Assembly (NCBI GenBank): GCA_903901975.1 | Contig: CAIUTB010000003.1 | Coordinates: 31,063-95,062 of the forward strand | DNA: 64,000 nucleotides | Reading direction: 5' to 3' | Origin: an uncultured Bacteroidales bacterium | GTDB taxonomy: Bacteria > Bacteroidota > Bacteroidia > Bacteroidales > Paludibacteraceae | In this document: positions 44,359 through 51,048 of the stretch, in pieces | Layout of the letters: each line of letters opens with the position of its first letter | Numbering within the stretch: position 1 is the stretch's first letter | Translations under genes and position numbers: made by a program | Notes under the pieces: generated by a model | Told to the model about the DNA's origin: nothing | What the model saw: the letters and a program-made list of their open reading frames with translations, nothing else | Database searches by the model: none

Positions 44359-44814
44359 ATGAACGAATTATTTGATAAAGTCAGTGGCGATATAAAAACT
44401 GCCATGTTAGCCCGTGATAAAGTGGCTTTAGAAGCCTTGCGCGGTATGAAAAAAGAATTTTTAGAAGCTAAAACTGCCAAAGGAAGCGATGGTAACCTTT
44501 CCGACGAAGTAGCTGTGAAGATTATTCAGAAAATGCTGAAACAACGCAAGGAATCGGCTCAGATTTACACCGAACAAAACCGGCCGGAGCTGGCTTCAAC
44601 TGAATTGGCAGAGGCTGCCGTTATTGAAAAATACCTACCAGCCCAAATGTCAGATACTGACCTTGAAGCTGCTGTTGCAGCAATAATTGTTCAGGTTGGA
44701 GCTACCGGTCCCCAAGATATGGGAAAAGTGATGGGAGTTGCAAGCAAACAACTTGCCGGTAAAACTGAAGGCCGGTTGATTTCTGAAAAAGTAAAAGTAT
44801 TGTTGGCTAAATAA
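44359..44814 (+). CDS. GatB/YqeY domain protein
   Basis: 151 aa. The motif ...MLARDK..L.ALR..K... is typical of YqeY. Confidence 0.85.
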   Translation: MNELFDKVSGDIKTAMLARDKVALEALRGMKKEFLEAKTAKGSDGNLSDEVAVKIIQKMLKQRKESAQIYTEQNRPELASTELAEAAVIEKYLPAQMSDTDLEAAVAAIIVQVGATGPQDMGKVMGVASKQLAGKTEGRLISEKVKVLLAK

Positions 44815-44876: not shown

Positions 44877-45938
44877 CTATTGTTTCATAATTTCCTGTTG
44901 GTGTCTCACCGATTCTTCGTGAATTGCGACTAAAACATTTTTCATAAACTCTCTATCCATCCCCATTTTTTCGGCTTGTGTAATACGATTTTTCAGAATT
45001 TCATCATAGCGTTGTTCCTGTAGAATAGGCATGTTGTGTTCTTTTTTATAGGTGCCTATTTCTTCGGAAACGCGCATACGGCGTGCCAGTAATTCAAGTA
45101 AACTGTTATCGAGTTCGTCAATTTGTCGACGTAACGCTGTCAGATTTTCAGTTGTTTGCGTCATGTCACGGATAACGAGTGTGCTGAGAATTAAGTCAAG
45201 GACTTCAGGAGTTACCTGTTGAGCTGCATCGCTCCATGCTTTTTCAGGATTACAATGAGATTCAATAATCAATCCATCGAAATTCAAATCCATAGCTTGC
45301 TGACAAAGTGGTGCAATCAATTCTCGTTTTCCACCAATGTGACTTGGATCACAAATTAAAGGTAGGTTCGGAATCTGGCGTTTCAGTTCAATTGGAATAT
45401 GCCATTGTGGGAGATTCCGGTATATCTTTTTGTCGAAGGTACTGAAACCACGATGAATAGCCGCAATACGACGAATACCTGCATTGTGAATACGCTCAAT
45501 AGCTCCTATCCATAAATCTAGATCCGGATTTACCGGGTTTTTTACAAACACAGGAATATCAACGCCTTCTAACGCATCAGCTATTTCTTGTACTGCAAAA
45601 GGATTTGCAGATGTACGTGCGCCAACCCACAGAATATCAACGCCGTGTGCTAAACATTCACGAACGTGAACAGCTGTGGCCACTTCTACCGCAGTATACA
45701 TCCCCAATTCATTATGTACACGTTTCAGCCAAGGTAAACCGATAACACCTATTCCTTCGAAACCACCAGGTTTGGTACGTGGTTTCCATATTCCGGCACG
45801 GAAGATTTTCACCCCACGAGCATGAAGTCGGCGGGCTGTTTCCATAACTTGTTCTTCGGTTTCTGCACTACAAGGTCCGGCTATTATGAGTGGACGCTTG
45901 GCGTCAACACCGGGTAGTAAAATTGATTCGAGTTCCAT
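44877..45938 (-). CDS. bifunctional 3-deoxy-7-phosphoheptulonate (DAHP) synthase (type I-beta) / chorismate mutase
   Basis: 353 aa. The N-terminal part is a KDO8P/DAHP-synthase-like barrel (LIIAGPCS.E, CDPSH). The C-terminal roughly 90 aa form an AroQ chorismate mutase (LR..ID..D..LL.LL..R). Confidence 0.9.
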   Translation of the reverse strand: MELESILLPGVDAKRPLIIAGPCSAETEEQVMETARRLHARGVKIFRAGIWKPRTKPGGFEGIGVIGLPWLKRVHNELGMYTAVEVATAVHVRECLAHGVDILWVGARTSANPFAVQEIADALEGVDIPVFVKNPVNPDLDLWIGAIERIHNAGIRRIAAIHRGFSTFDKKIYRNLPQWHIPIELKRQIPNLPLICDPSHIGGKRELIAPLCQQAMDLNFDGLIIESHCNPEKAWSDAAQQVTPEVLDLILSTLVIRDMTQTTENLTALRRQIDELDNSLLELLARRMRVSEEIGTYKKEHNMPILQEQRYDEILKNRITQAEKMGMDREFMKNVLVAIHEESVRHQQEIMKQ

Positions 45939-45994: not shown

Positions 45995-47161
45995 TCAACC
46001 AATTAACTTTTTTATTCTATTGAGTGCTTCACACAACATTTTATCATTGGCACAAAGTGAAATTCGAATGTAACTGTTTCCTTTGTCACCGAAAATAAAT
46101 CCCGGAGTGATAAATACCTTGGCTTCGTAAAGCACTTTGTCTGCGAGTTCACCACTATCGGCGTACTCTGCCGGAATTTTCCCCCAAAGGAACATTCCCA
46201 CCTGTGTTTCGTCATATGTACAGCCGAGTGTTTTCATTATTTCTTCAGCCAAATGACGACGGTTACGATACAATTCAATGTTCATTTCGCGGTGCCATGC
46301 TTCGGAATTGTTGAGAGCTGCAATGGCAGCAACCTGCATAGGCTTGAACTGTCCACTATCAATATTACTTTTTACCTTGAGTACCCATTCCACAAATTGT
46401 GGATTCGAAGCAAGCATACCCATACGCCAACCCGGCATATTGTGAGATTTGCTCATGGAATTCAACTCAATACAAATATCTTTTGCACCTTCCACCTGAA
46501 GAATGCTGAGCCGGTTGTCATTCAGGATAAAGCTATACGGATTGTCATTACAAATCACAATGCTGTGTTTCTTACCGAAAGCCACCAATTTTTCAAACAA
46601 TACAGGAGTGGCACTTGCTCCGGTTGGCATATTCGGATAGTTTACCCACATCAATTTAACGCCTGTCAAATCCATTTGTTCAAGTGCATCGAAATCAGGT
46701 TGCCAATTGTTGTCTTCATCCAAATCATAAGTCACCACCTTGGCTTGAACCAGATTACTAACCGACGAATAGGTAGGATAGCCGGGATTTGGAACTAACA
46801 CGCCATCTCCCTGATTCAGAAATGCCAGTGAAATATGTAAAATTCCTTCTTTTGAACCAATTAACGGTTGAATTTCGTTTACCGGATTCAATCCAACATT
46901 GAACCATTTTTTATACCAATCAGCCAAGGCTTTACGCAATTCGGGAATTCCTACATAAGGCTGATAACCATGCGTATTGGCTTCGACAGCTGATTTTGTC
47001 AGAGCATCAACCGTTTCTTTCGATGGTGGTAGGTCGGGGCTACCAACGCCAAGGCTGATAACATTCATTCCCTTTGCATTCATCTCCGCCACTTCTTTCA
47101 GTTTCTTTGAAAAATAGTATTCAGAAACAGAATTTAATCTCTCTGCAGGTTTAATAGTCAT
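45995..47161 (-). CDS. class I/II PLP-dependent aminotransferase (probable aromatic/prephenate aminotransferase by context)
   Basis: 388 aa with the motifs NP.NPTG and SKS. The N.PGWR-type lysine region (SMSKSHNMPGWRMG) is present. It lies between pheA and the DAHP synthase gene. Confidence 0.85.
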   Translation of the reverse strand: MTIKPAERLNSVSEYYFSKKLKEVAEMNAKGMNVISLGVGSPDLPPSKETVDALTKSAVEANTHGYQPYVGIPELRKALADWYKKWFNVGLNPVNEIQPLIGSKEGILHISLAFLNQGDGVLVPNPGYPTYSSVSNLVQAKVVTYDLDEDNNWQPDFDALEQMDLTGVKLMWVNYPNMPTGASATPVLFEKLVAFGKKHSIVICNDNPYSFILNDNRLSILQVEGAKDICIELNSMSKSHNMPGWRMGMLASNPQFVEWVLKVKSNIDSGQFKPMQVAAIAALNNSEAWHREMNIELYRNRRHLAEEIMKTLGCTYDETQVGMFLWGKIPAEYADSGELADKVLYEAKVFITPGFIFGDKGNSYIRISLCANDKMLCEALNRIKKLIG

Positions 47162-47204
47162 TTTGTTTATTCTTTCTTTTTACTGATAACTGCTTACTGC
47201 CAAT

Positions 47205-48050
47205 TTATTCTCCCGGTGTTATTCCTTCCGGATATTCTCCCAGGGTTTTTAATTCGTTGATTAAAGGCTTAATAGCCACCAGAGATTGTTTGTATCGTTC
47301 GAGGTCGTCAAATTTAAAATCAACATAGAACTGATACTCCCATTCACGACCTATAATTGGCAACGATTGAATTTTTGTCAGATTGATGCCGTAGAATGAG
47401 AATACCGACAAAACTTTCGAAAGACTTCCTTCGGAGTGGGGCAAGGTGAAAACAACAGATGCTTTATTTATTGCATCATCTTTCTGAATTTCTTCCACTA
47501 CCCACGGGTTTCCAAATATCAGAAAGCGCGTGAAATTTCGTTTGTTCGTTTCAATTCCACGTGCCAGAATGTTCAGTCCGTAAATCTCGGCAGCCCGTTC
47601 ACTGCAAATAGCTGCATTTCCAATCAAATTGTGCTGTTGAATGTCTCGCGCAGCTAATGCAGTATCTTCATGCTCCACCACTTTTACTCCAGGCAAAGTA
47701 CCCAAAAAATCACCACACTGCATCAGCGCTATTGGATGTGATTGGACTTCTTTAATGTCGTGAATTGTTTGTCCGGGTAATGCCGCCAAACAATGAGAAA
47801 TCCGCAGTTTGAATTCACCGGCAATAGGCAACTTATGTTCTTTAAGCAATTCGTAGTTTGGTAATAGACTTCCCGCAATAGTGTTTTCGATAGCCATAAT
47901 TCCTACTACATTCGAGTCTTTTTTAATAGCTGAAAATATATCACGAAAAGTGATACAGGGAATGATTTGTACATCCTCATCCCTGAAGAAAATCTCAGCT
48001 GCAATGCCGTGATAGGCGCCCAAACCTCCCTGAATAGCTACTCGTTTCAT
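47205..48050 (-). CDS. pheA: prephenate dehydratase (with C-terminal ACT domain)
   Basis: 281 aa. It has a PDT domain (VAIQG..GAY...A, TRF.IF motif as NFTRFLIFG) and an ACT domain with ESRP-like region replaced by LTKIQSLP. Confidence 0.9.
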   Translation of the reverse strand: MKRVAIQGGLGAYHGIAAEIFFRDEDVQIIPCITFRDIFSAIKKDSNVVGIMAIENTIAGSLLPNYELLKEHKLPIAGEFKLRISHCLAALPGQTIHDIKEVQSHPIALMQCGDFLGTLPGVKVVEHEDTALAARDIQQHNLIGNAAICSERAAEIYGLNILARGIETNKRNFTRFLIFGNPWVVEEIQKDDAINKASVVFTLPHSEGSLSKVLSVFSFYGINLTKIQSLPIIGREWEYQFYVDFKFDDLERYKQSLVAIKPLINELKTLGEYPEGITPGE

Positions 48051-48087
48051 ACTAGTTTATAGTTGGTAGTAAATAGTTTATAGTTAT

Positions 48088-48120
48088 AAAAAAATCCTGC
48101 TCGTTGTGAAGCAGGATTTT
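48088..48120 (-). terminator. attenuator terminator in the pheA leader
   Basis: The minus-strand RNA reads AAAAUCCUGCU-ucacaacg-AGCAGGAUUUUUUU, an 11-bp stem followed by a 7-U run. It ends 38 nt upstream of the pheA ATG. Confidence 0.7.
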
Positions 48121-48165
48121 CATGTATTTTCTATTGATTATAGTTTTGTTATTTACATAAAGGCT

Positions 48166-48178
48166 ATCCTGCTCTCAC
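48166..48178 (-). promoter_or_regulatory. antiterminator 5' segment of the pheA leader (GUGAGAGCAGGAU), overlapping the leader-peptide stop codon
   Basis: AGCAGGAU is an exact duplicate of the 3' arm of the terminator and is complementary to AUCCUGCU (48110-48117). GUGA is complementary to UCAC (48106-48109). Confidence 0.55.
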
Positions 48179-48228
48179 CTACTAAAGTAAAAGTAAAAAT
48201 AAAAGTATGTAAAAAATCGGTTTACCAT
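48175..48228 (-). CDS. Phe/Tyr-rich leader peptide MVNRFFTYFYFYFYFSR (17 aa)
   Basis: Translated by hand as ATG GTA AAC CGA TTT TTT ACA TAC TTT TAT TTT TAC TTT TAC TTT AGT AGG TGA. Ten of 11 consecutive codons are Phe or Tyr. It lies between a -7 box and the terminator, upstream of a Phe/aromatic biosynthesis operon. Confidence 0.6.
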   Translation of the reverse strand: MVNRFFTYFYFYFYFSR

Positions 48229-48254
48229 AAGAGTTGTCTTTTTCTTAGACGCTG

Positions 48255-48262
48255 CAAAAATA
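48255..48262 (-). promoter_or_regulatory. candidate -7 box TATTTTTG driving the pheA leader
   Basis: The minus strand reads AATACTATTTTTGCAG (48252-48267), a 16-mer identical to the one upstream of the TPR gene at 62042-62057. It lies about 27 nt upstream of the leader ATG. Confidence 0.45.
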
Positions 48263-48370
48263 GTATTATTTTCAACAAATACAACCATATTGTCAAGAAA
48301 AAGTTCAGAAAAATTTCAAATTAAAATTTATCAGACAAAAAATGTCCCAACAAATTGTTTTAGTTGAAAC

Positions 48371-48592
48371 TTATTCCAGGACAATTTTCTTTTTTCTGCC
48401 TGTTAAAATATAAATGATTGGCAGTATTCCAAGCGTATTCAAAAAGGCAATACAAATAAACCATATTACCTGTTTATTTCTGGCCGATTTCCACATAGCG
48501 ATTATTTTCCAGGTGAGATCCCAAAGCACCAACAAAAGAATCGGAATTTCGTAAGGTGCCATTTTCCAATGAAAATTTTCCAGATTATTCAT
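48371..48592 (-). CDS. small two-TM membrane protein (DUF5652-like)
   Basis: 73 aa. The pattern LLVLWDLTWKIIAMWKSARNKQVIWFICIAFLNTLGILPIIYIL resembles the DUF5652 / PLD-N-terminal-like small-protein pattern. Confidence 0.55.
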   Translation of the reverse strand: MNNLENFHWKMAPYEIPILLLVLWDLTWKIIAMWKSARNKQVIWFICIAFLNTLGILPIIYILTGRKKKIVLE

Positions 48593-48735
48593 AAAATTGG
48601 ATTTAAAGTGTGATTAATTGAAGATAACTTGCACTTCCAATAAATCGATAACCATTCACTGGAATTGACACCTCAAAATTACTTATTTTTATTTTAATCC
48701 AACATAATTAAAGAATTATTTCTTTAATTATTATG

Positions 48736-50574
48736 TTAAAGTTTTATGTTAACCCCGACATTGAAATTTATACCCGGCATTGGGTAGCCATAATTAATTT
48801 GATACTGTGTATTTGTAAGGTTACTGCCAACTACAAAAATTTCAAGTTGCTTCATTGGACGGGTTGAAAGACGTGCATTCAGCAGACAATAATCTGCTGT
48901 GCTTTCCATGACAGCTGCAAATGGATTGGTCGTGTTGAGGACGTATAGTTTTTCGATGTATTGAGCTGAAACATTCAGATTCCATATTTTATAGCTATAG
49001 TTAGCGCTAATATTCACTTGCTGACGTGGGGCAGCTACGACCGCTTTTGACAGATCTAAGTAGCTATAATTGGCATGAACGAAAAGGTTTTTACAAACCG
49101 CATATCTTGCCGAGAATTCAATTCCCTGATTATCGAACGAACCTACATTTTGTCGCATGGCCGGAAATGGAGGAACCACCACCTGAATTATGTTATTACC
49201 TTTTACTTTAAAAACAGTCAACTCAATGTTCAGGCGCTTATTCAGCAAGGATTGTAACCAACTGATTTCGTAATTAACCATTCGTTCGGGTTGCAAATTT
49301 GGATTGGGCGCATACAGATAAAGTTCCATAATGGTTGGGCTTCGAAAACCTTTTGAAACCGAAGCTTTGAAAGTTGTTTCGTCAGAGAAATTATATGTCA
49401 GACCGCCAATGGGAATCAATTCATTGCCAAATTTGGAATTGTTTTCCAGCCTCAATCCGGCACTTACTGTCAGTTTTTCGAACAAAGTTTGCTGTGCATA
49501 AGCATAAACTGCCATTTCAGTCAGATTGATAAGCGAATCGTGTTTAAAACCCTGATTGGCAATCCCACCATATTCTTTATAATCAATTCCGGCAGTTATA
49601 TTTGTTCCTGTAGTCAGTTTAAATGTTTGAAAAAGCATCGCACCGGTGTTGTGGTCAGTGGAGCGAAAACCATCCGACAAAATATGAGTCCCGAAATTGT
49701 GATAGAATTTGAATCCACCTTCTGATTTATCAAACTTATTATCCACGGCTAGCGAAGTCTTGCCACGGGTAACATCAATATTGAAAGGAATCGGTGTTGT
49801 AAGATAAATAGATCCGTTGTCGTTGGCATTGAATTTTGCCAGACTGAAATCGGCGGTAACATTAAATTTTTTGCTGAGTTCGTAGCCCATTTTTGCATAT
49901 CCGTTGGTGATATTAAAGTCCGTATTGGCACGAATACCGTCGGTTTGGTCGTGATTTACAGAAGCAAAGGCACTCAGTTTATCTTTTCTGTAACCAATCG
50001 TTCCAAAATACTTCTGTGTGTTGTAAGAGCCATAGGATCCGCCCAGATTAACTTTGAATCCTTCTTCCTTTTGCTTTTTGGTAATGATATTTATTACACC
50101 TGCCATGGCATTCGAACCATACAAAATCGAAGCCGGACCGCGAATAATCTCCAACTTTTCTATATCTGAACTTACATAAGCATCGGCTAGCGGATGACCG
50201 AAAATGCCCTGATATTGTGGATTACCGTCAATCAATACCAGTACATCCGTGTTTGGTGAACTGCTGATACCACGCATGGTGATTGCTCCGGATGCAGTAC
50301 CCGAAACTCCAAATCCAAGCATATTACGTTCGGTGACAAAAATTCCAGGTGTAAAGGTATTTAGTGCCGGAAGGATGTTCATCTGTCCGGTACTTTCTAT
50401 TTCCTGTTTCGAAATTTGTGAAACTGAAAGTGGAACTATCTTGCGTGATATTTCTGTTTTTGAACCGGTTATTACTATGTCGTTGAGTTGTATACTGTCT
50501 TTTTTAGTTGATTGGGCGAAAATTAATTTGGTCGTCATAACCAAAAGTAGAATTACGTGAAGTTTTTGTTTCAT
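48736..50574 (-). CDS. TonB-dependent outer-membrane receptor
   Basis: 612 aa. It has a signal peptide, a plug domain (DIVITGSKTE..., IEIIRGPASILYGSNAMAGVINIITK) and a beta-barrel with a C-terminal aromatic-rich strand. Confidence 0.9.
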   Translation of the reverse strand: MKQKLHVILLLVMTTKLIFAQSTKKDSIQLNDIVITGSKTEISRKIVPLSVSQISKQEIESTGQMNILPALNTFTPGIFVTERNMLGFGVSGTASGAITMRGISSSPNTDVLVLIDGNPQYQGIFGHPLADAYVSSDIEKLEIIRGPASILYGSNAMAGVINIITKKQKEEGFKVNLGGSYGSYNTQKYFGTIGYRKDKLSAFASVNHDQTDGIRANTDFNITNGYAKMGYELSKKFNVTADFSLAKFNANDNGSIYLTTPIPFNIDVTRGKTSLAVDNKFDKSEGGFKFYHNFGTHILSDGFRSTDHNTGAMLFQTFKLTTGTNITAGIDYKEYGGIANQGFKHDSLINLTEMAVYAYAQQTLFEKLTVSAGLRLENNSKFGNELIPIGGLTYNFSDETTFKASVSKGFRSPTIMELYLYAPNPNLQPERMVNYEISWLQSLLNKRLNIELTVFKVKGNNIIQVVVPPFPAMRQNVGSFDNQGIEFSARYAVCKNLFVHANYSYLDLSKAVVAAPRQQVNISANYSYKIWNLNVSAQYIEKLYVLNTTNPFAAVMESTADYCLLNARLSTRPMKQLEIFVVGSNLTNTQYQINYGYPMPGINFNVGVNIKL

Positions 50575-50646: not shown

Positions 50647-51048
50647 TTAATCCACTTTGCTCATAATTAATTTACCGTGTTCTATGCCTTTAATACTTAT
50701 CAGTGCTTCTGAAAGTTCGGTAAGCTTGTGTGAAGGACCTTTTACAGCAATAATTTCGAGCGCTTTTTCGGCTGAGATATAAAAATTCTGAGCTGAAAGA
50801 ATTTCATTGATTGCATTTTTCTTAATCTCTGAAATTTTTACCTGAACCTCATTTTTGTTGTAATTATAAGTGAGAATAATTGCACCTGCAACAATATTGT
50901 TGCATTTCCACTTTTGTTCAACAATATTTTTCTCAATCAAATGGCGAATGGCTTGCGATCTGTTCGGAAATTTATTTTCCTGAACAAACACATCAAGGGC
51001 TTCAAGCAAGTCATTTTCAAGCGAAACTCCAAATCTGGCTACCGGCAT
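50647..51048 (-). CDS. NikR-like ribbon-helix-helix regulator with non-canonical C-terminal domain
   Basis: 133 aa. The N-terminus (RFGVSLENDLLEALD...NRSQAIRHLI) matches the NikR/CopG RHH fold. The C-terminal ACT-like domain aligns to NikR (LEIIAVKG, IKGIEHGKL) but lacks the Ni ligands. Confidence 0.8.
   Translation of the reverse strand: MPVARFGVSLENDLLEALDVFVQENKFPNRSQAIRHLIEKNIVEQKWKCNNIVAGAIILTYNYNKNEVQVKISEIKKNAINEILSAQNFYISAEKALEIIAVKGPSHKLTELSEALISIKGIEHGKLIMSKVD

What the first reader, a model, noticed from the sequence alone, without database searches (positions are those of the whole stretch)
48088..48288. Phe/Tyr-rich leader peptide with alternative hairpins: a ribosome-mediated attenuator for the pheA-aminotransferase-DAHPS/CM operon
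**What the sequence shows (minus strand):**
- A -7 box TATTTTTG at 48255-48262 is followed by a 17-codon ORF at 48228-48175, encoding MVNRFFTYFYFYFYFSR*. Ten of 11 consecutive codons (48216-48184) are Phe or Tyr.
- The stop codon UGA is embedded in GUGAGAGCAGGAU (48178-48166). This segment can pair with AUCCUGCUUCAC (48117-48106) as 8 + 4 bp with one bulged G.
- The same AUCCUGCU is the 5' arm of a perfect terminator, AAAAUCCUGCU-ucacaacg-AGCAGGAUUUUUUU (48120-48088), which ends 38 nt before the pheA ATG.
- AGCAGGAU therefore occurs twice, competing for one partner. This is the classic antiterminator/terminator geometry.

**Inferred mechanism:**
- A ribosome reaching the stop codon would occlude the antiterminator and favour termination.
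- A ribosome stalled on Phe/Tyr codons would leave the antiterminator free and allow read-through.
- The downstream operon makes prephenate dehydratase, an aminotransferase and DAHP synthase/chorismate mutase, so dual Phe + Tyr sensing is logical.

**Context and caveat:**
- Leader-peptide attenuation is textbook for proteobacterial pheA/pheST, and only computational predictions exist for Bacteroidota as far as I know.
- An in-frame upstream ATG at 48288 would give a 37-aa version, but it overlaps the predicted promoter.
Basis: partly seen in the sequence, partly recalled or inferred. Interest (0 to 1): 0.8.

Follow-up and report, generated by a model that had tools for sequence, protein, structure and literature searches.

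The report
Phe/Tyr leader-peptide attenuator of pheA operon
A 17-codon mini-gene full of phenylalanine and tyrosine codons, followed by competing RNA hairpins, sits in front of the phenylalanine/tyrosine biosynthesis operon and almost certainly works as a classic ribosome-sensed on/off switch; it is real and conserved across Bacteroidales, but the mechanism is textbook and the same element was already noted in a Flavobacterium.

Summary
Comparison with relatives shows it is a conserved functional element.

- **Conservation:** the F/Y-rich uORF, a TAnnTTTG promoter box, region 2, region 3 and an intrinsic terminator occur upstream of pheA in about 77 of 79 related genome loci. These span Paludibacter, Dysgonomonas, Proteiniphilum, Parabacteroides, Bacteroides and Azobacteroides. 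About 40 metagenome contigs carry it too.
- **Linkage:** the element always lies in front of pheA–aminotransferase–DAHPS/CM, whatever gene is upstream.
- **Reading frame:** an in-frame ATG opens the FYFYF frame in 63 of 64 leaders, against 1 and 0 for the other two frames. Other loci use GTG or TTG.
- **Base pairing:** terminator and antiterminator are supported by three-way compensatory changes.
- **Third helix:** This completes the classical 1:2 / 2:3 / 3:4 scheme.
- **Tyr logic:** in most relatives tyrA follows DAHPS/CM, which fits mixed Phe and Tyr codons.
- **Prior art:** the element is absent from Rfam. An orthologous pheA leader with a mapped TSS and conditional read-through was reported for Flavobacterium psychrophilum in 2021.

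Verdict: interpretation supported. It is a new member of a known kind, of modest interest.

The parts
48255..48262 (-). Bacteroidota sigma-A '-7' promoter box TATTTTTG (TAnnTTTG). The inferred TSS is about 6 nt downstream (~48249), giving a ~21-nt A-rich 5' UTR without a Shine-Dalgarno sequence.
   Evidence: Sequence read. TAnnTTTG is present in 62 of 64 aligned leaders, 18-32 nt (mode 27-28) before the start codon. The 20 nt before the start are 55% A (median), and SD-like motifs occur in 2 of 64. In the F. psychrophilum homologue the mapped TSS lies 6 nt after the box, and the box-to-ATG distance is 25 nt against 26 nt here. The TSS in the window is inferred, not measured.
48175..48228 (-). 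Leader peptide ORF: 17 codons plus UGA, MVNRFFTYFYFYFYFSR* (6 Phe, 4 Tyr).
   Evidence: Conserved F/Y-rich uORF in 65 of 79 genome loci with an ATG start, and 10-11 more with an in-frame GTG or TTG. An in-frame ATG opens the FYF frame in 63 of 64 leaders, against 1 of 64 and 0 of 64 for the other frames.
48185..48213 (-). Region 1: the regulatory F/Y codon block (codons 6-15, UUUACAUACUUUUAUUUUUACUUUUACUU). It is the 5' strand of the anti-antiterminator.
   Evidence: MFE of the leader. Helices at columns 108-116/128-136 are 96.4% paired, against 62-65% when slid by one column and lower at larger slides. Helices at columns 85-92/149-156 are 93% paired, with 3 pairs showing compensatory change. 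RNAalifold predicts both independently.
48152..48180 (-). Region 2: AGGUGAGAGCAGGAUAGCCUUUAUGUAAA. It contains the stop codon and the first AGCAGGAU copy (48173-48166), and pairs either with region 1 or with region 3.
   Evidence: The core pairs with the F/Y block (mean pair probability above 0.5) in 64 of 64 leaders before region 3 is transcribed. It pairs with region 3 in 62 of 64 when the F/Y block is masked.
48106..48126 (-). Region 3: UACAUGAAAAUCCUGCUUCAC. It is the 3' strand of the antiterminator and the 5' arm of the terminator.
   Evidence: The antiterminator core (columns 134-142/219-227) is 90.8% paired, with compensatory changes at 4 pairs: 135/226 GC21/AU16, 136/225 GC35/AU21/GU8, 138/223 AU59/GC4, and 134/227, which is poorly paired overall. 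The 2:3 duplex has a median of 15 bp and -19.6 kcal/mol, against -6.8 for shuffled region 2.
48088..48121 (-). Intrinsic terminator (attenuator): a 13-bp stem, GAAAAUCCUGCUU / GAGCAGGAUUUUU, with a 6-nt loop and a 7-U tract ending at 48088.
   Evidence: A terminator is present in all 64 aligned leaders. Columns 217-227/239-249 are 98.7% paired, with 5 pairs and 96 cells showing compensatory change, against 36-55% paired when slid. Predicted by RNAalifold.
47205..48050 (-). pheA, prephenate dehydratase: the first structural gene of the regulated operon.
   Evidence: Pfam PF00800, E = 2e-52. The nearest relatives are Paludibacter (97% identity, 99%).
45995..47161 (-). Class I/II aminotransferase: the second gene of the operon.
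   Evidence: Pfam PF00155, E = 1e-59. Follows pheA in 78 of the 80 loci.
44877..45938 (-). Bifunctional DAHP synthase / chorismate mutase: the third and last gene of the operon in this lineage.
   Evidence: Pfam PF00793 and PF01817. Conserved position in relatives. The next gene (YqeY, 44359-44814) is on the opposite strand.

Best explanation
This is a ribosome-mediated (leader-peptide) transcription attenuator controlling the pheA–aminotransferase–DAHPS/chorismate mutase operon of a Paludibacter-like Bacteroidales bacterium.

**Proposed sequence of events**
- Transcription starts just downstream of a TAnnTTTG promoter box.
- The 5' leader encodes a 17-residue peptide with 10 Phe/Tyr codons.
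- These codons (region 1) pair with region 2, which spans the stop codon, AGCAGGAU and UUUAUGUA.
- Region 2 can alternatively pair with region 3 (UACAUGAA..AUCCUGCU), forming the antiterminator.
- Region 3 can alternatively pair with region 4 (AGCAGGAU plus U7), forming the intrinsic terminator.

**With ample Phe-tRNA and Tyr-tRNA**
- The ribosome runs to the UGA. Assuming a footprint that reaches about 12 nt 3' of the A-site codon (a literature value, not measured here), it covers to about 48165. That is exactly the AGCAGGAU copy at 48173-48166.
- After ribosome release, or with no translation at all, hairpin 1:2 re-forms.
- In both cases region 3 is free, the terminator forms, and transcription stops 38 nt before pheA.

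**With scarce Phe or Tyr**
- The ribosome stalls on the F/Y codons and melts hairpin 1:2, leaving region 2 exposed.
- Antiterminator 2:3 forms as soon as region 3 emerges, and RNA polymerase reads into pheA.

**Status of the steps**
- Shown here: all sequence elements; their mutual exclusivity; their conservation and covariation; frame conservation of the uORF; linkage to the operon.
- Inferred: the transcription start site; translation of the uORF; stalling; coupling to RNA polymerase; the physiological signal (Phe and Tyr together versus Phe alone).
For: **Anatomy in the window**
- All elements are present at the stated coordinates.

**Conservation of the uORF**
- 65 of 79 pheA loci from Paludibacter to Bacteroides carry an ATG-initiated F/Y-rich uORF.
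- 10-11 more carry the same uORF with a GTG or TTG start. Two are truncated by contig ends but show parts of the element.
- An in-frame ATG exists for the FYF frame in 63 of 64 leaders, against 1 and 0 for the other frames.
- Synonymous variation is present: TTT 352 / TTC 48 and TAC 154 / TAT 82.

**Structure**
- Terminator: 98.7% paired, with 5 pairs covarying.
- Antiterminator core: 90.8% paired, with 4 pairs covarying. Regions 2, 3 and 4 change in step.
- Hairpin 1:2: 96.4% and 93% paired in its two helices.
- RNAalifold predicts 1:2 plus the terminator de novo.

**Logic test on 64 leaders**
- The antiterminator is in the MFE in 62 of 64 when the F/Y block is masked.
- The terminator is in the MFE in 64 of 64 when region 2 is masked or the RNA is free.
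- The region 2 core pairs with the F/Y block in 64 of 64 before region 3 exists.

**Linkage**
- pheA–AT–DAHPS/CM is conserved in essentially all 80 genome loci, while the upstream TonB-receptor gene is present in only 4.
- All ~40 credible metagenomic leaders with enough flanking DNA precede the same operon.

**Pathway logic**
- The operon encodes PDT, an aminotransferase and DAHPS+CM.
- tyrA (PF02153) follows in at least 40 relatives.

**Homologue with transcriptome data**
- The F. psychrophilum pheA leader (MNTNNTFYSNNSFYFYWNIGRDCYMVI) has the same architecture.
- It has a mapped TSS, read-through under specific conditions and maximal operon expression in minimal medium (PMC9723704).
Against: - There are no expression, Term-seq or ribosome-profiling data for this organism or any Bacteroidales member. 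The TSS, the short terminated transcript and uORF translation are all inferred.
- The UUUUACUUUUACUUU block is almost invariant at the nucleotide level. Part of the apparent peptide conservation therefore reflects RNA pairing constraints rather than coding.
- Hairpin 1:2 is built largely of U-A and U-G pairs, which covary weakly. Its exact 9-bp register is in the MFE of only about half of the leaders.
- In 39 of 64 leaders the antiterminator is already the MFE of the free nascent transcript. The outcome therefore depends on folding kinetics that were not modelled.
- Bacteroidota mRNAs lack Shine-Dalgarno sequences, and ribosome-RNA polymerase coupling has not been demonstrated in this phylum (my own background knowledge, not tested here).
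Confidence: 0.87

Rival explanations
1. The attenuator has the same architecture but senses phenylalanine only. On this reading the Tyr codons (UAC/UAU) are there because their C or A supplies the base pairs that hold region 1 to region 2, not because Tyr-tRNA is sensed.
For: C108 and C114 of the two UAC codons pair with G residues of region 2 in nearly all leaders: C-G in 58-60 of 64. The UUUUACUUUUACUUU block is near-invariant at the nucleotide level. The first gene, pheA, is Phe-specific. In this lineage tyrA is not in the operon or anywhere in the window.
Against: Tyr codons are also conserved outside the paired block, with a median of 4 Y per peptide and both UAU and UAC used. UUC could supply a C without changing the amino acid. 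The operon in most relatives ends with tyrA, and it includes DAHPS/CM and an aminotransferase that serve both branches. The Flavobacterium homologue keeps F3/Y4 despite a different nucleotide sequence.
Confidence: 0.25
2. The leader is a translation-independent RNA switch (riboswitch-like, protein-binding or tRNA-binding), or simply a 5' UTR-derived small RNA. On this reading the short ORF is a by-product of a U-rich structured RNA.
For: Nucleotide-level conservation of the F/Y block exceeds what coding alone requires. The whole block is part of a conserved helix. There is no direct evidence of translation. Terminated attenuator RNAs can act in trans in other bacteria, as rnTrpL does in Sinorhizobium (abstracts listed).
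Against: A start codon in the FYF frame is present in 63 of 64 leaders, against 1 and 0 in the other frames. Start-codon replacements are ATG to GTG or TTG at the same position. Length differences between the start codon and the F/Y block keep the FYF frame. The N-terminal codons vary freely while the frame is kept, and a stop always follows within a narrow window. There is no Rfam riboswitch or T-box hit in the window or in 12 relatives. The codon identity matches the operon's end products.
Confidence: 0.05
3. The hairpin plus U-tract is merely the terminator of the upstream transcription unit (DUF5652 / TonB receptor / NikR genes on the same strand). On this reading the F/Y ORF is a chance ORF in AT-rich spacer DNA.
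For: The upstream genes are on the same strand, and the DUF5652 ORF ends at 48371, about 250 nt before the hairpin. AT-rich DNA yields U-rich ORFs easily.
Against: A conserved promoter box lies between the upstream gene and the uORF. The upstream TonB-receptor gene is present in only 4 of 80 related loci, while the leader plus terminator accompanies pheA in about 77 of 79. Chance matches to the DNA motif in metagenomes lack the start codon, short ORF and pheA context. An F/Y run of this density occurs once in the window.
Confidence: 0.02

Closest known systems
Flavobacterium psychrophilum pheA-aspC3 leader peptide attenuation element (THC0290_N_0195; Guerin et al. 2021, ISME Commun, PMC9723704, SI Appendix D9 and Table S7)
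   Same: Same phylum and same operon head (pheA followed by an aminotransferase). The TAnnTTTG promoter lies about 25 nt before the ATG, against 26 nt here. The uORF is F/Y-rich (…SFYFYW…). Region 2 (GGGAUUGUUAUAUG), region 3 (AUAUACAAUCCCGUC) and the terminator (AAUCCCGUC..GGCGGGAUUUUUUUUU) align to the Bacteroidales profile (nhmmer 19.9 bits) and fold into the same three alternative helices. It therefore looks like an orthologue (inference).
   Different: The peptide is longer (27 aa) and runs through region 2, as in Parabacteroides. It has fewer Phe codons and one Trp codon. It comes from a different class (Flavobacteriia) and shares little nucleotide identity in region 1. That element has TSS and expression data, whereas the window element has none.
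Escherichia coli pheL-pheA attenuator (Rfam Phe_leader RF01859)
   Same: A leader peptide rich in Phe codons lies in front of pheA. The terminator/antiterminator/1:2 logic is the same, and the size is similar (~125-160 nt).
   Different: It is not a sequence or structure homologue by Rfam criteria: 26.2 bits against a gathering score of 55, E = 0.16. pheL has Phe codons only ([15 protein letters not shown], from memory). The element here alternates Phe and Tyr. It uses a Bacteroidota promoter and has no Shine-Dalgarno sequence. The operon also contains DAHPS/CM and, ancestrally, tyrA.
Escherichia coli trp operon attenuator (canonical 1:2 / 2:3 / 3:4 model)
   Same: The layout is a four-segment one in which the regulatory codons lie in segment 1 and the stop codon abuts segment 2. 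Segments 2 and 4 both complement segment 3. The terminator is the default structure of the free RNA.
   Different: The amino acids sensed are different. Region 1 here consists almost wholly of regulatory codons. The position of the stop codon relative to region 2 varies between lineages, lying before or after it.
Bacteroid-trp leader (Rfam RF01692; Weinberg et al. 2010, PMC2864571)
   Same: It is a predicted leader-peptide attenuator of an aromatic amino-acid operon in Bacteroidota, recognised by conserved regulatory codons plus a hairpin.
   Different: It has Trp codons and sits upstream of trpB/trpE. No match appears in the window or in 12 relatives. It is an unrelated sequence.
Lactococcus leu/phe leader (Rfam RF01743)
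   Same: It is a leader-peptide attenuator outside Proteobacteria.
   Different: It comes from a different phylum and has a different sequence. There is no Rfam hit here.

Membership tests
Ribosome-mediated (leader-peptide) transcription attenuators of amino-acid biosynthesis operons | A short ORF with start and stop codons lies in the 5' leader, between the promoter and the first structural gene. | tested here: met
   The ORF spans 48228-48175 and has 17 codons. It is conserved with ATG, GTG or TTG starts in about 76 of 79 loci. Frame test: 63/64 against 1/64 and 0/64.
Ribosome-mediated (leader-peptide) transcription attenuators of amino-acid biosynthesis operons | The leader ORF is enriched in codons for the amino acid(s) made by the downstream operon. 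| tested here: met
   10 of 17 codons are Phe or Tyr. The median across the family is 6 F and 4 Y. The operon encodes PDT, an aminotransferase and DAHPS+CM, plus tyrA in at least 40 relatives.
Ribosome-mediated (leader-peptide) transcription attenuators of amino-acid biosynthesis operons | An intrinsic terminator (GC-containing hairpin plus U-tract) lies between the leader ORF and the first gene. | tested here: met
   A 13-bp stem plus U7 lies at 48121-48088. It is present in 64 of 64 leaders, is 98.7% paired, and 5 pairs covary.
Ribosome-mediated (leader-peptide) transcription attenuators of amino-acid biosynthesis operons | An antiterminator helix is mutually exclusive with the terminator and is placed so that a ribosome at the stop codon blocks it. 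| tested here: met
   Helix 2:3 shares columns 219-227 with the terminator and is 90.8% paired with 4 covarying pairs. It forms in 62 of 64 leaders when the F/Y block is masked. The stop codon at 48177-48175 lies 2 nt before AGCAGGAU. Occlusion by the ribosome is inferred from a typical footprint size.
Ribosome-mediated (leader-peptide) transcription attenuators of amino-acid biosynthesis operons | An anti-antiterminator (1:2) hairpin involves the regulatory codons, so a stalled ribosome frees region 2. | tested here: met
   (64 of 64).
Ribosome-mediated (leader-peptide) transcription attenuators of amino-acid biosynthesis operons | The leader is translated, and termination or read-through responds to the supply of the cognate charged tRNA. 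| not testable with these tools
   Only indirect evidence exists. The F. psychrophilum homologue shows read-through under specific conditions and maximal expression in minimal medium.
Rfam Phe_leader (RF01859, enterobacterial pheL) | A covariance-model score at or above the gathering threshold of 55 bits. | tested here: not met
   The score is 26.2 bits, E = 0.16. There is no hit at gathering threshold in the window or in 12 relatives.
Rfam Bacteroid-trp leader (RF01692) | A covariance-model match, Trp codons, and a position upstream of trp genes. | tested here: not met
   It is not among the hits up to E = 10 in 47000-49500. There are no Trp codons in the window peptide.
Bacteroidota pheA leader element as described in F. 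psychrophilum (PMC9723704) | A TAnnTTTG promoter lies about 25 nt before an F/Y-rich uORF. A GGGAU/AUCCC-type antiterminator/terminator follows. The element is located directly upstream of pheA–aminotransferase. | tested here: met
   The window has the box 26 nt before the ATG. The published sequence aligns to the A1 profile across region 2, region 3 and the terminator, and folds alike. The operon head is the same. Common descent is inferred from this similarity and was not tested phylogenetically.

The most novel reading that the evidence does not exclude
The element could be more than a Phe attenuator. It could be a phylum-wide, multi-input sensor of aromatic amino-acid charging that gates the entry step of the pathway (DAHPS/CM) together with both terminal branches.

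- It carries Phe and Tyr codons everywhere, plus a Trp codon at a fixed position in the Proteiniphilum clade and in Flavobacterium.
- Bacteroidota initiate translation without Shine-Dalgarno pairing. A strictly conserved attenuator would therefore imply tight ribosome-RNA polymerase coupling in this phylum, and would give a handle to test that coupling.
- In addition, the abundant terminated leader RNA or the invariant …FYFYF-x-(R/K) peptide might act in trans, as rnTrpL/peTrpL do in Sinorhizobium.
Probability: 0.15. Interest if true: 0.55.

Novelty: new member of a known kind. Interest (0 to 1): 0.3.

Why it matters
**Annotation value**
- The element gives a correct annotation for an unannotated ~190-nt region. 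That region controls aromatic amino-acid biosynthesis in Paludibacter, and by homology in Dysgonomonas, Proteiniphilum, Parabacteroides and Bacteroides, which include abundant gut and digester bacteria.
- The family is not in Rfam. The 64-sequence alignment with three covarying helices made here could seed a model.

**Conceptual value**
- The gain is modest, because the mechanism is textbook and an orthologue was already flagged in Flavobacterium.
- The useful angle is that a conserved ribosome-dependent attenuator exists in a phylum without Shine-Dalgarno-led initiation. This offers a simple reporter for testing transcription-translation coupling, and for testing whether one leader integrates Phe and Tyr (and perhaps Trp) signals.

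Tried and rejected
- **Rfam.** An E-value scan of 47000-49500 gave only sub-threshold look-alikes: Phe_leader 26 bits, Thr_leader 21 bits, and sRNAs matching the terminator. Gathering-threshold scans of the whole window and of 12 relatives found nothing relevant.
- **The search for homologous proteins with PheA.** It listed only close relatives (83-99% identity), so it did not extend the taxonomic range.
- **Breadth outside Bacteroidales.** This comes only from the published Flavobacterium sequence.
- **Literature.** Vitreschak et al. 2004 (PMID 15135544) is not held. From memory, its abstract mentions attenuators in Bacteroidetes/Chlorobi, but I could not check whether pheA is among them. The B. 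thetaiotaomicron transcriptome paper mentions leader-peptide-like sORFs, but its held supplements have no pheA entry. Naville & Gautheret 2010 and Korolev 2016 do not treat this element.
- **Metagenome pattern scan.** It returned many chance matches in AT-rich DNA. Only those with a start codon and a short ORF were leaders. No second target operon was found.
- **Other leader peptides in the window.** A scan for mono-amino-acid-rich short ORFs found nothing convincing. No second copy of the F/Y block exists in the window.
- **Single fixed register for hairpin 1:2.** The exact 9-bp register is in the MFE of only 30-32 of 64 leaders. I replaced that test with pair probabilities and with the outer helix.
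- **37-aa version starting at 48288.** Rejected as the main product, because that ATG lies upstream of the conserved -7 box.
- **+ strand features.** The 72-aa ORF at 48106-48324 and the + strand terminator call are mirror images of the same hairpin, with no + strand gene to serve.
Full report
**1. Observation**

- The TATTTTTG box lies at 48262-48255.
- The ORF runs from the ATG at 48228 to the UGA at 48177-48175 and encodes MVNRFFTYFYFYFYFSR*. Ten of the 11 codons at 48216-48184 are Phe or Tyr.
- AGCAGGAU occurs twice, at 48173-48166 and 48101-48094. Its complement AUCCUGCU occurs once, at 48117-48110.
- A perfect hairpin followed by seven U ends at 48088, 38 nt before the pheA ATG at 48050.

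The feature is more than chance.
- The leader RNA folds far better than shuffled versions (-37.2 against -21.4 +/- 3.1 kcal/mol, z = -5.2).
- An F/Y run of this density occurs once in the six frames of the 64-kb window.
- Truncating the RNA before the terminator 3' arm makes the proposed antiterminator the minimum-energy structure.

**2. Context**

- The three downstream genes on the same strand are prephenate dehydratase, a class I/II aminotransferase and a DAHP synthase–chorismate mutase fusion. The next gene is on the other strand.
- Upstream on the same strand are a 73-aa DUF5652 membrane protein (48592-48371), a TonB-dependent receptor and a NikR-like regulator. This is an unrelated unit.
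- The closest PheA proteins belong to Paludibacter (97% identity in a genome, 99% in a metagenome).

**3. Conservation of the uORF**

- I fetched the 80 closest pheA loci from one-genome-per-species GTDB contigs. They cover Paludibacter, Dysgonomonas, Seramator, Proteiniphilum, Fermentimonas, Petrimonas, Parabacteroides, Bacteroides, Azobacteroides and Symbiothrix.
- Of the 79 loci with any upstream sequence, 65 have an ATG-initiated ORF of 16-32 codons with 8-12 F/Y residues. All contain …FYFYF… and lie 150-335 nt before pheA.
- Of the 14 apparent exceptions, 10-11 have the same peptide opened by an in-frame GTG or TTG. Two are cut by the contig end but still show the peptide or the terminator. 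One has only 150 nt of upstream sequence and no sign of the element.
- In the 64 distinct aligned leaders, the FYF frame has an in-frame upstream ATG with no intervening stop in 63. The +1 frame has one in 1 leader and the +2 frame in none.
- The N-terminal residues vary freely (MVNR, MASR, MTR, MKNFS, MNNSV…). Length differences keep the frame, and both synonymous codons are used (TTT 352 / TTC 48; TAC 154 / TAT 82). This behaviour fits a translated ORF and does not fit a purely structural RNA.
- The position of the stop codon varies. In Paludibacter it lies just 5' of region 2. In Parabacteroides, some Dysgonomonas and Bacteroides the peptide reads through region 2 (…SRVKAGVCM*). Both positions put a terminating ribosome on region 2.

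**4. Promoter and initiation region**

- TAnnTTTG, the Bacteroidota sigma-A -7 motif, is present in 62 of 64 leaders, 18-32 nt (mode 27-28) before the start codon.
- The 20 nt before the start are A-rich (median 55%). SD-like motifs occur in 2 of 64.
- The window's TSS is inferred, not measured.

**5. Structures and covariation (alignment A1)**

| Helix | Columns | Cells paired | Pairs with compensatory change | Slid controls |
|---|---|---|---|---|
| Terminator | 217-227 / 239-249 | 98.7% | 5 pairs (96 cells) | 36-55% |
| Antiterminator core | 134-142 / 219-227 | 90.8% | 4 pairs | 27-45% |
| Hairpin 1:2, inner | 108-116 / 128-136 | 96.4% | 2 pairs (mostly U-A to U-G changes) | 47-66% |
| Hairpin 1:2, outer (UUUACAUA / UAUGUAAA) | 85-92 / 149-156 | 93% | 3 pairs | 21-67% |

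- In the antiterminator core, pair 135/226 is G-C in 21 leaders and A-U in 16. Pair 136/225 is G-C in 35, A-U in 21 and G-U in 8. Pair 138/223 is A-U in 59 and G-C in 4. The fourth varying pair, 134/227, is poorly paired overall.
- The same region-3 columns covary with region 4. Regions 2, 3 and 4 therefore change together, as expected if region 3 must pair with either partner.
In it the F/Y codons (CUUUUACUU) pair with AGGUGAGAG, and the Phe-Thr-Tyr codons (UUUACAUA) pair with UAUGUAAA just 3' of AGCAGGAU.
- In the outer helix, pair 88/153 is A-U in 33 leaders, G-C in 13 and G-U in 6.
- RNAalifold, run without any input structure, predicts exactly these 1:2 helices plus the terminator. Nine of its 27 pairs show compensatory change.
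- Caveats: the sequences are related, so shuffle controls overstate significance. The 1:2 helix is U-rich and therefore carries little information.

**6. Logic test across 64 leaders**

- Before region 3 is transcribed, the region 2 core pairs with the F/Y block, with mean pair probability above 0.5 in 64 of 64 leaders.
- With the F/Y block masked (stalled ribosome), the MFE of the nascent RNA up to the end of region 3 contains the antiterminator core in 62 of 64.
- With region 2 masked (ribosome at or over the stop codon), or with free full-length RNA, the terminator forms in 64 of 64.
- The 2:3 duplex has a median of 15 bp and -19.6 kcal/mol, against -6.8 for shuffled region 2 (z about -5.6). 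The terminator hairpin has a median of -16 kcal/mol.
- Geometry in the window rests on an assumed footprint reaching about 12 nt 3' of the A-site codon. That figure is established knowledge, not measured here.
  - A ribosome with UGA in the A site then covers to about 48165, which is exactly the AGCAGGAU copy at 48173-48166.
  - A ribosome with the last Phe codon in the A site covers only to about 48174, leaving that copy free.

**7. Linkage and pathway logic**

- pheA–aminotransferase–DAHPS/CM follows the leader in 78 of the 80 genome loci. The window's upstream TonB-receptor gene is present in only 4.
- An exact-pattern scan of metagenome contigs returned many chance hits and about 40 true leaders. 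Every true leader with enough downstream DNA lies 86-145 nt (one at 322 nt) before the same operon, with PheA identity of 48-99%. No second target operon was seen.
- In at least 40 genome loci a prephenate dehydrogenase gene (PF02153) follows DAHPS/CM by about 9 nt. The ancestral operon therefore makes both Phe and Tyr, which fits the mixed F/Y leader.
- In the Paludibacter lineage, and anywhere in this window, tyrA is absent. The Tyr codons are retained all the same.

**8. Comparison with known systems**

- The mechanism is the classical trp/phe/his type of attenuation.
- By Rfam's own criterion the element is not a member of Phe_leader (26.2 bits against 55), nor of any other family.
- Weinberg et al. 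(PMC2864571) described a Bacteroidetes Trp leader and stated that none had been reported in that phylum before.
- Ryan et al. (PMC7366714) noted leader-like sORFs in B. thetaiotaomicron without validation.
- Most relevant is Guerin et al. [quoted passage not shown]
  - It has a mapped TSS and a 170-nt 5' transcribed region.
  - It shows read-through under specific conditions and maximal operon expression in minimal medium.
  - The authors drew terminator and antiterminator hairpins, and found no Rfam hit.
- That published sequence has the same box-to-ATG spacing (25 nt against 26 nt). It aligns to the Bacteroidales profile over region 2, region 3 and the terminator, and folds into the same alternatives. 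I infer that it is an orthologue.

**9. Rival explanations**

- **Phe-only sensing, with Tyr codons kept for base pairing.** This is not excluded (about 0.25). The operon content and the conservation of Tyr outside the paired block argue for dual sensing.
- **Translation-independent RNA switch.** This is unlikely given the start-codon and frame evidence (about 0.05).
- **Terminator of the upstream unit plus a chance ORF.** This is excluded for practical purposes by synteny and the intervening promoter (about 0.02).

**10. Verdict**

- What remains inferred is everything that needs an experiment: the TSS, the short transcript, uORF translation, and the response to Phe and Tyr.
- The element is a new, well-documented member of a known kind. 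It is absent from Rfam but anticipated by a Flavobacterium report, so its interest is modest (0.3).

Noticed in passing
window 48371-48592 (-), with 48736-50574 (-) and 50647-51048 (-): A 73-aa DUF5652 membrane-protein ORF (Pfam E = 8.5e-25) lies between the TonB-dependent receptor gene and the pheA leader. With the NikR-like regulator upstream, this looks like a metal (nickel?) uptake cluster. It is unrelated to the attenuator and is present upstream of pheA in only 4 of 80 relatives.
   Followed up: partly
L019-L080 (e.g. L072:4979-5722, L026:6456-6824) and L087:4809-5588; window (absent): A prephenate dehydrogenase gene (tyrA, PF02153) directly follows DAHPS/CM in at least 40 related genome loci. 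It is missing from the operon in Paludibacter-type loci and from the whole 64-kb window. This lineage seems to have moved or lost tyrA from the operon while keeping the Tyr codons in the leader.
   Followed up: partly
L041, L043, L044, L046, L050, L051, L053, L056, L059, L060 (leader peptides): In the Proteiniphilum/Fermentimonas clade the leader has a Trp codon at a fixed position (…SFWFYFYFSR). Sister sequences have Gly or Cys there (…SFGFYFYF, …SFCFYFYF). The Flavobacterium homologue also has one Trp (…FYFYW…). This could mean a third aromatic input, or it could be only an RNA-pairing constraint.
   Followed up: no
L148 (oriented to the leader strand; ~150-320 nt after the uORF stop): In a distant metagenomic relative (PheA 48% identical) the leader terminator is followed by about 200 nt of extra sequence. 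That sequence carries a second strong terminator-like hairpin (GCGUCCCGGAGAAAUCUGGGACGCUUUUUUU) before pheA. It may be a tandem attenuator or an inserted element.
   Followed up: no
L020, L022, L024, L025, L029-L033, L035, L049, L052 (between the aminotransferase and DAHPS/CM genes): Several loci, mostly Dysgonomonas, have gaps of about 0.5-1.1 kb between the aminotransferase and DAHPS/CM genes. The window has 56 nt there. The gaps suggest an inserted gene or element inside the operon.
   Followed up: no
window 48091-48120 (+): The attenuator hairpin is flanked by an A-tract on its 5' side, so the simple scan also calls it a terminator on the + strand. No + strand gene runs into it, so this is probably a by-product of the A/U-extended stem.
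   Followed up: yes
alignment A1 columns 106-117 (window 48195-48184): UACUUUUACUUU (Tyr-Phe-Tyr-Phe) is almost invariant at the nucleotide level, including the synonymous third positions, across families whose PheA proteins are only 62-70% identical. This is a clear case of overlapping coding and RNA-pairing constraints.
   Followed up: partly
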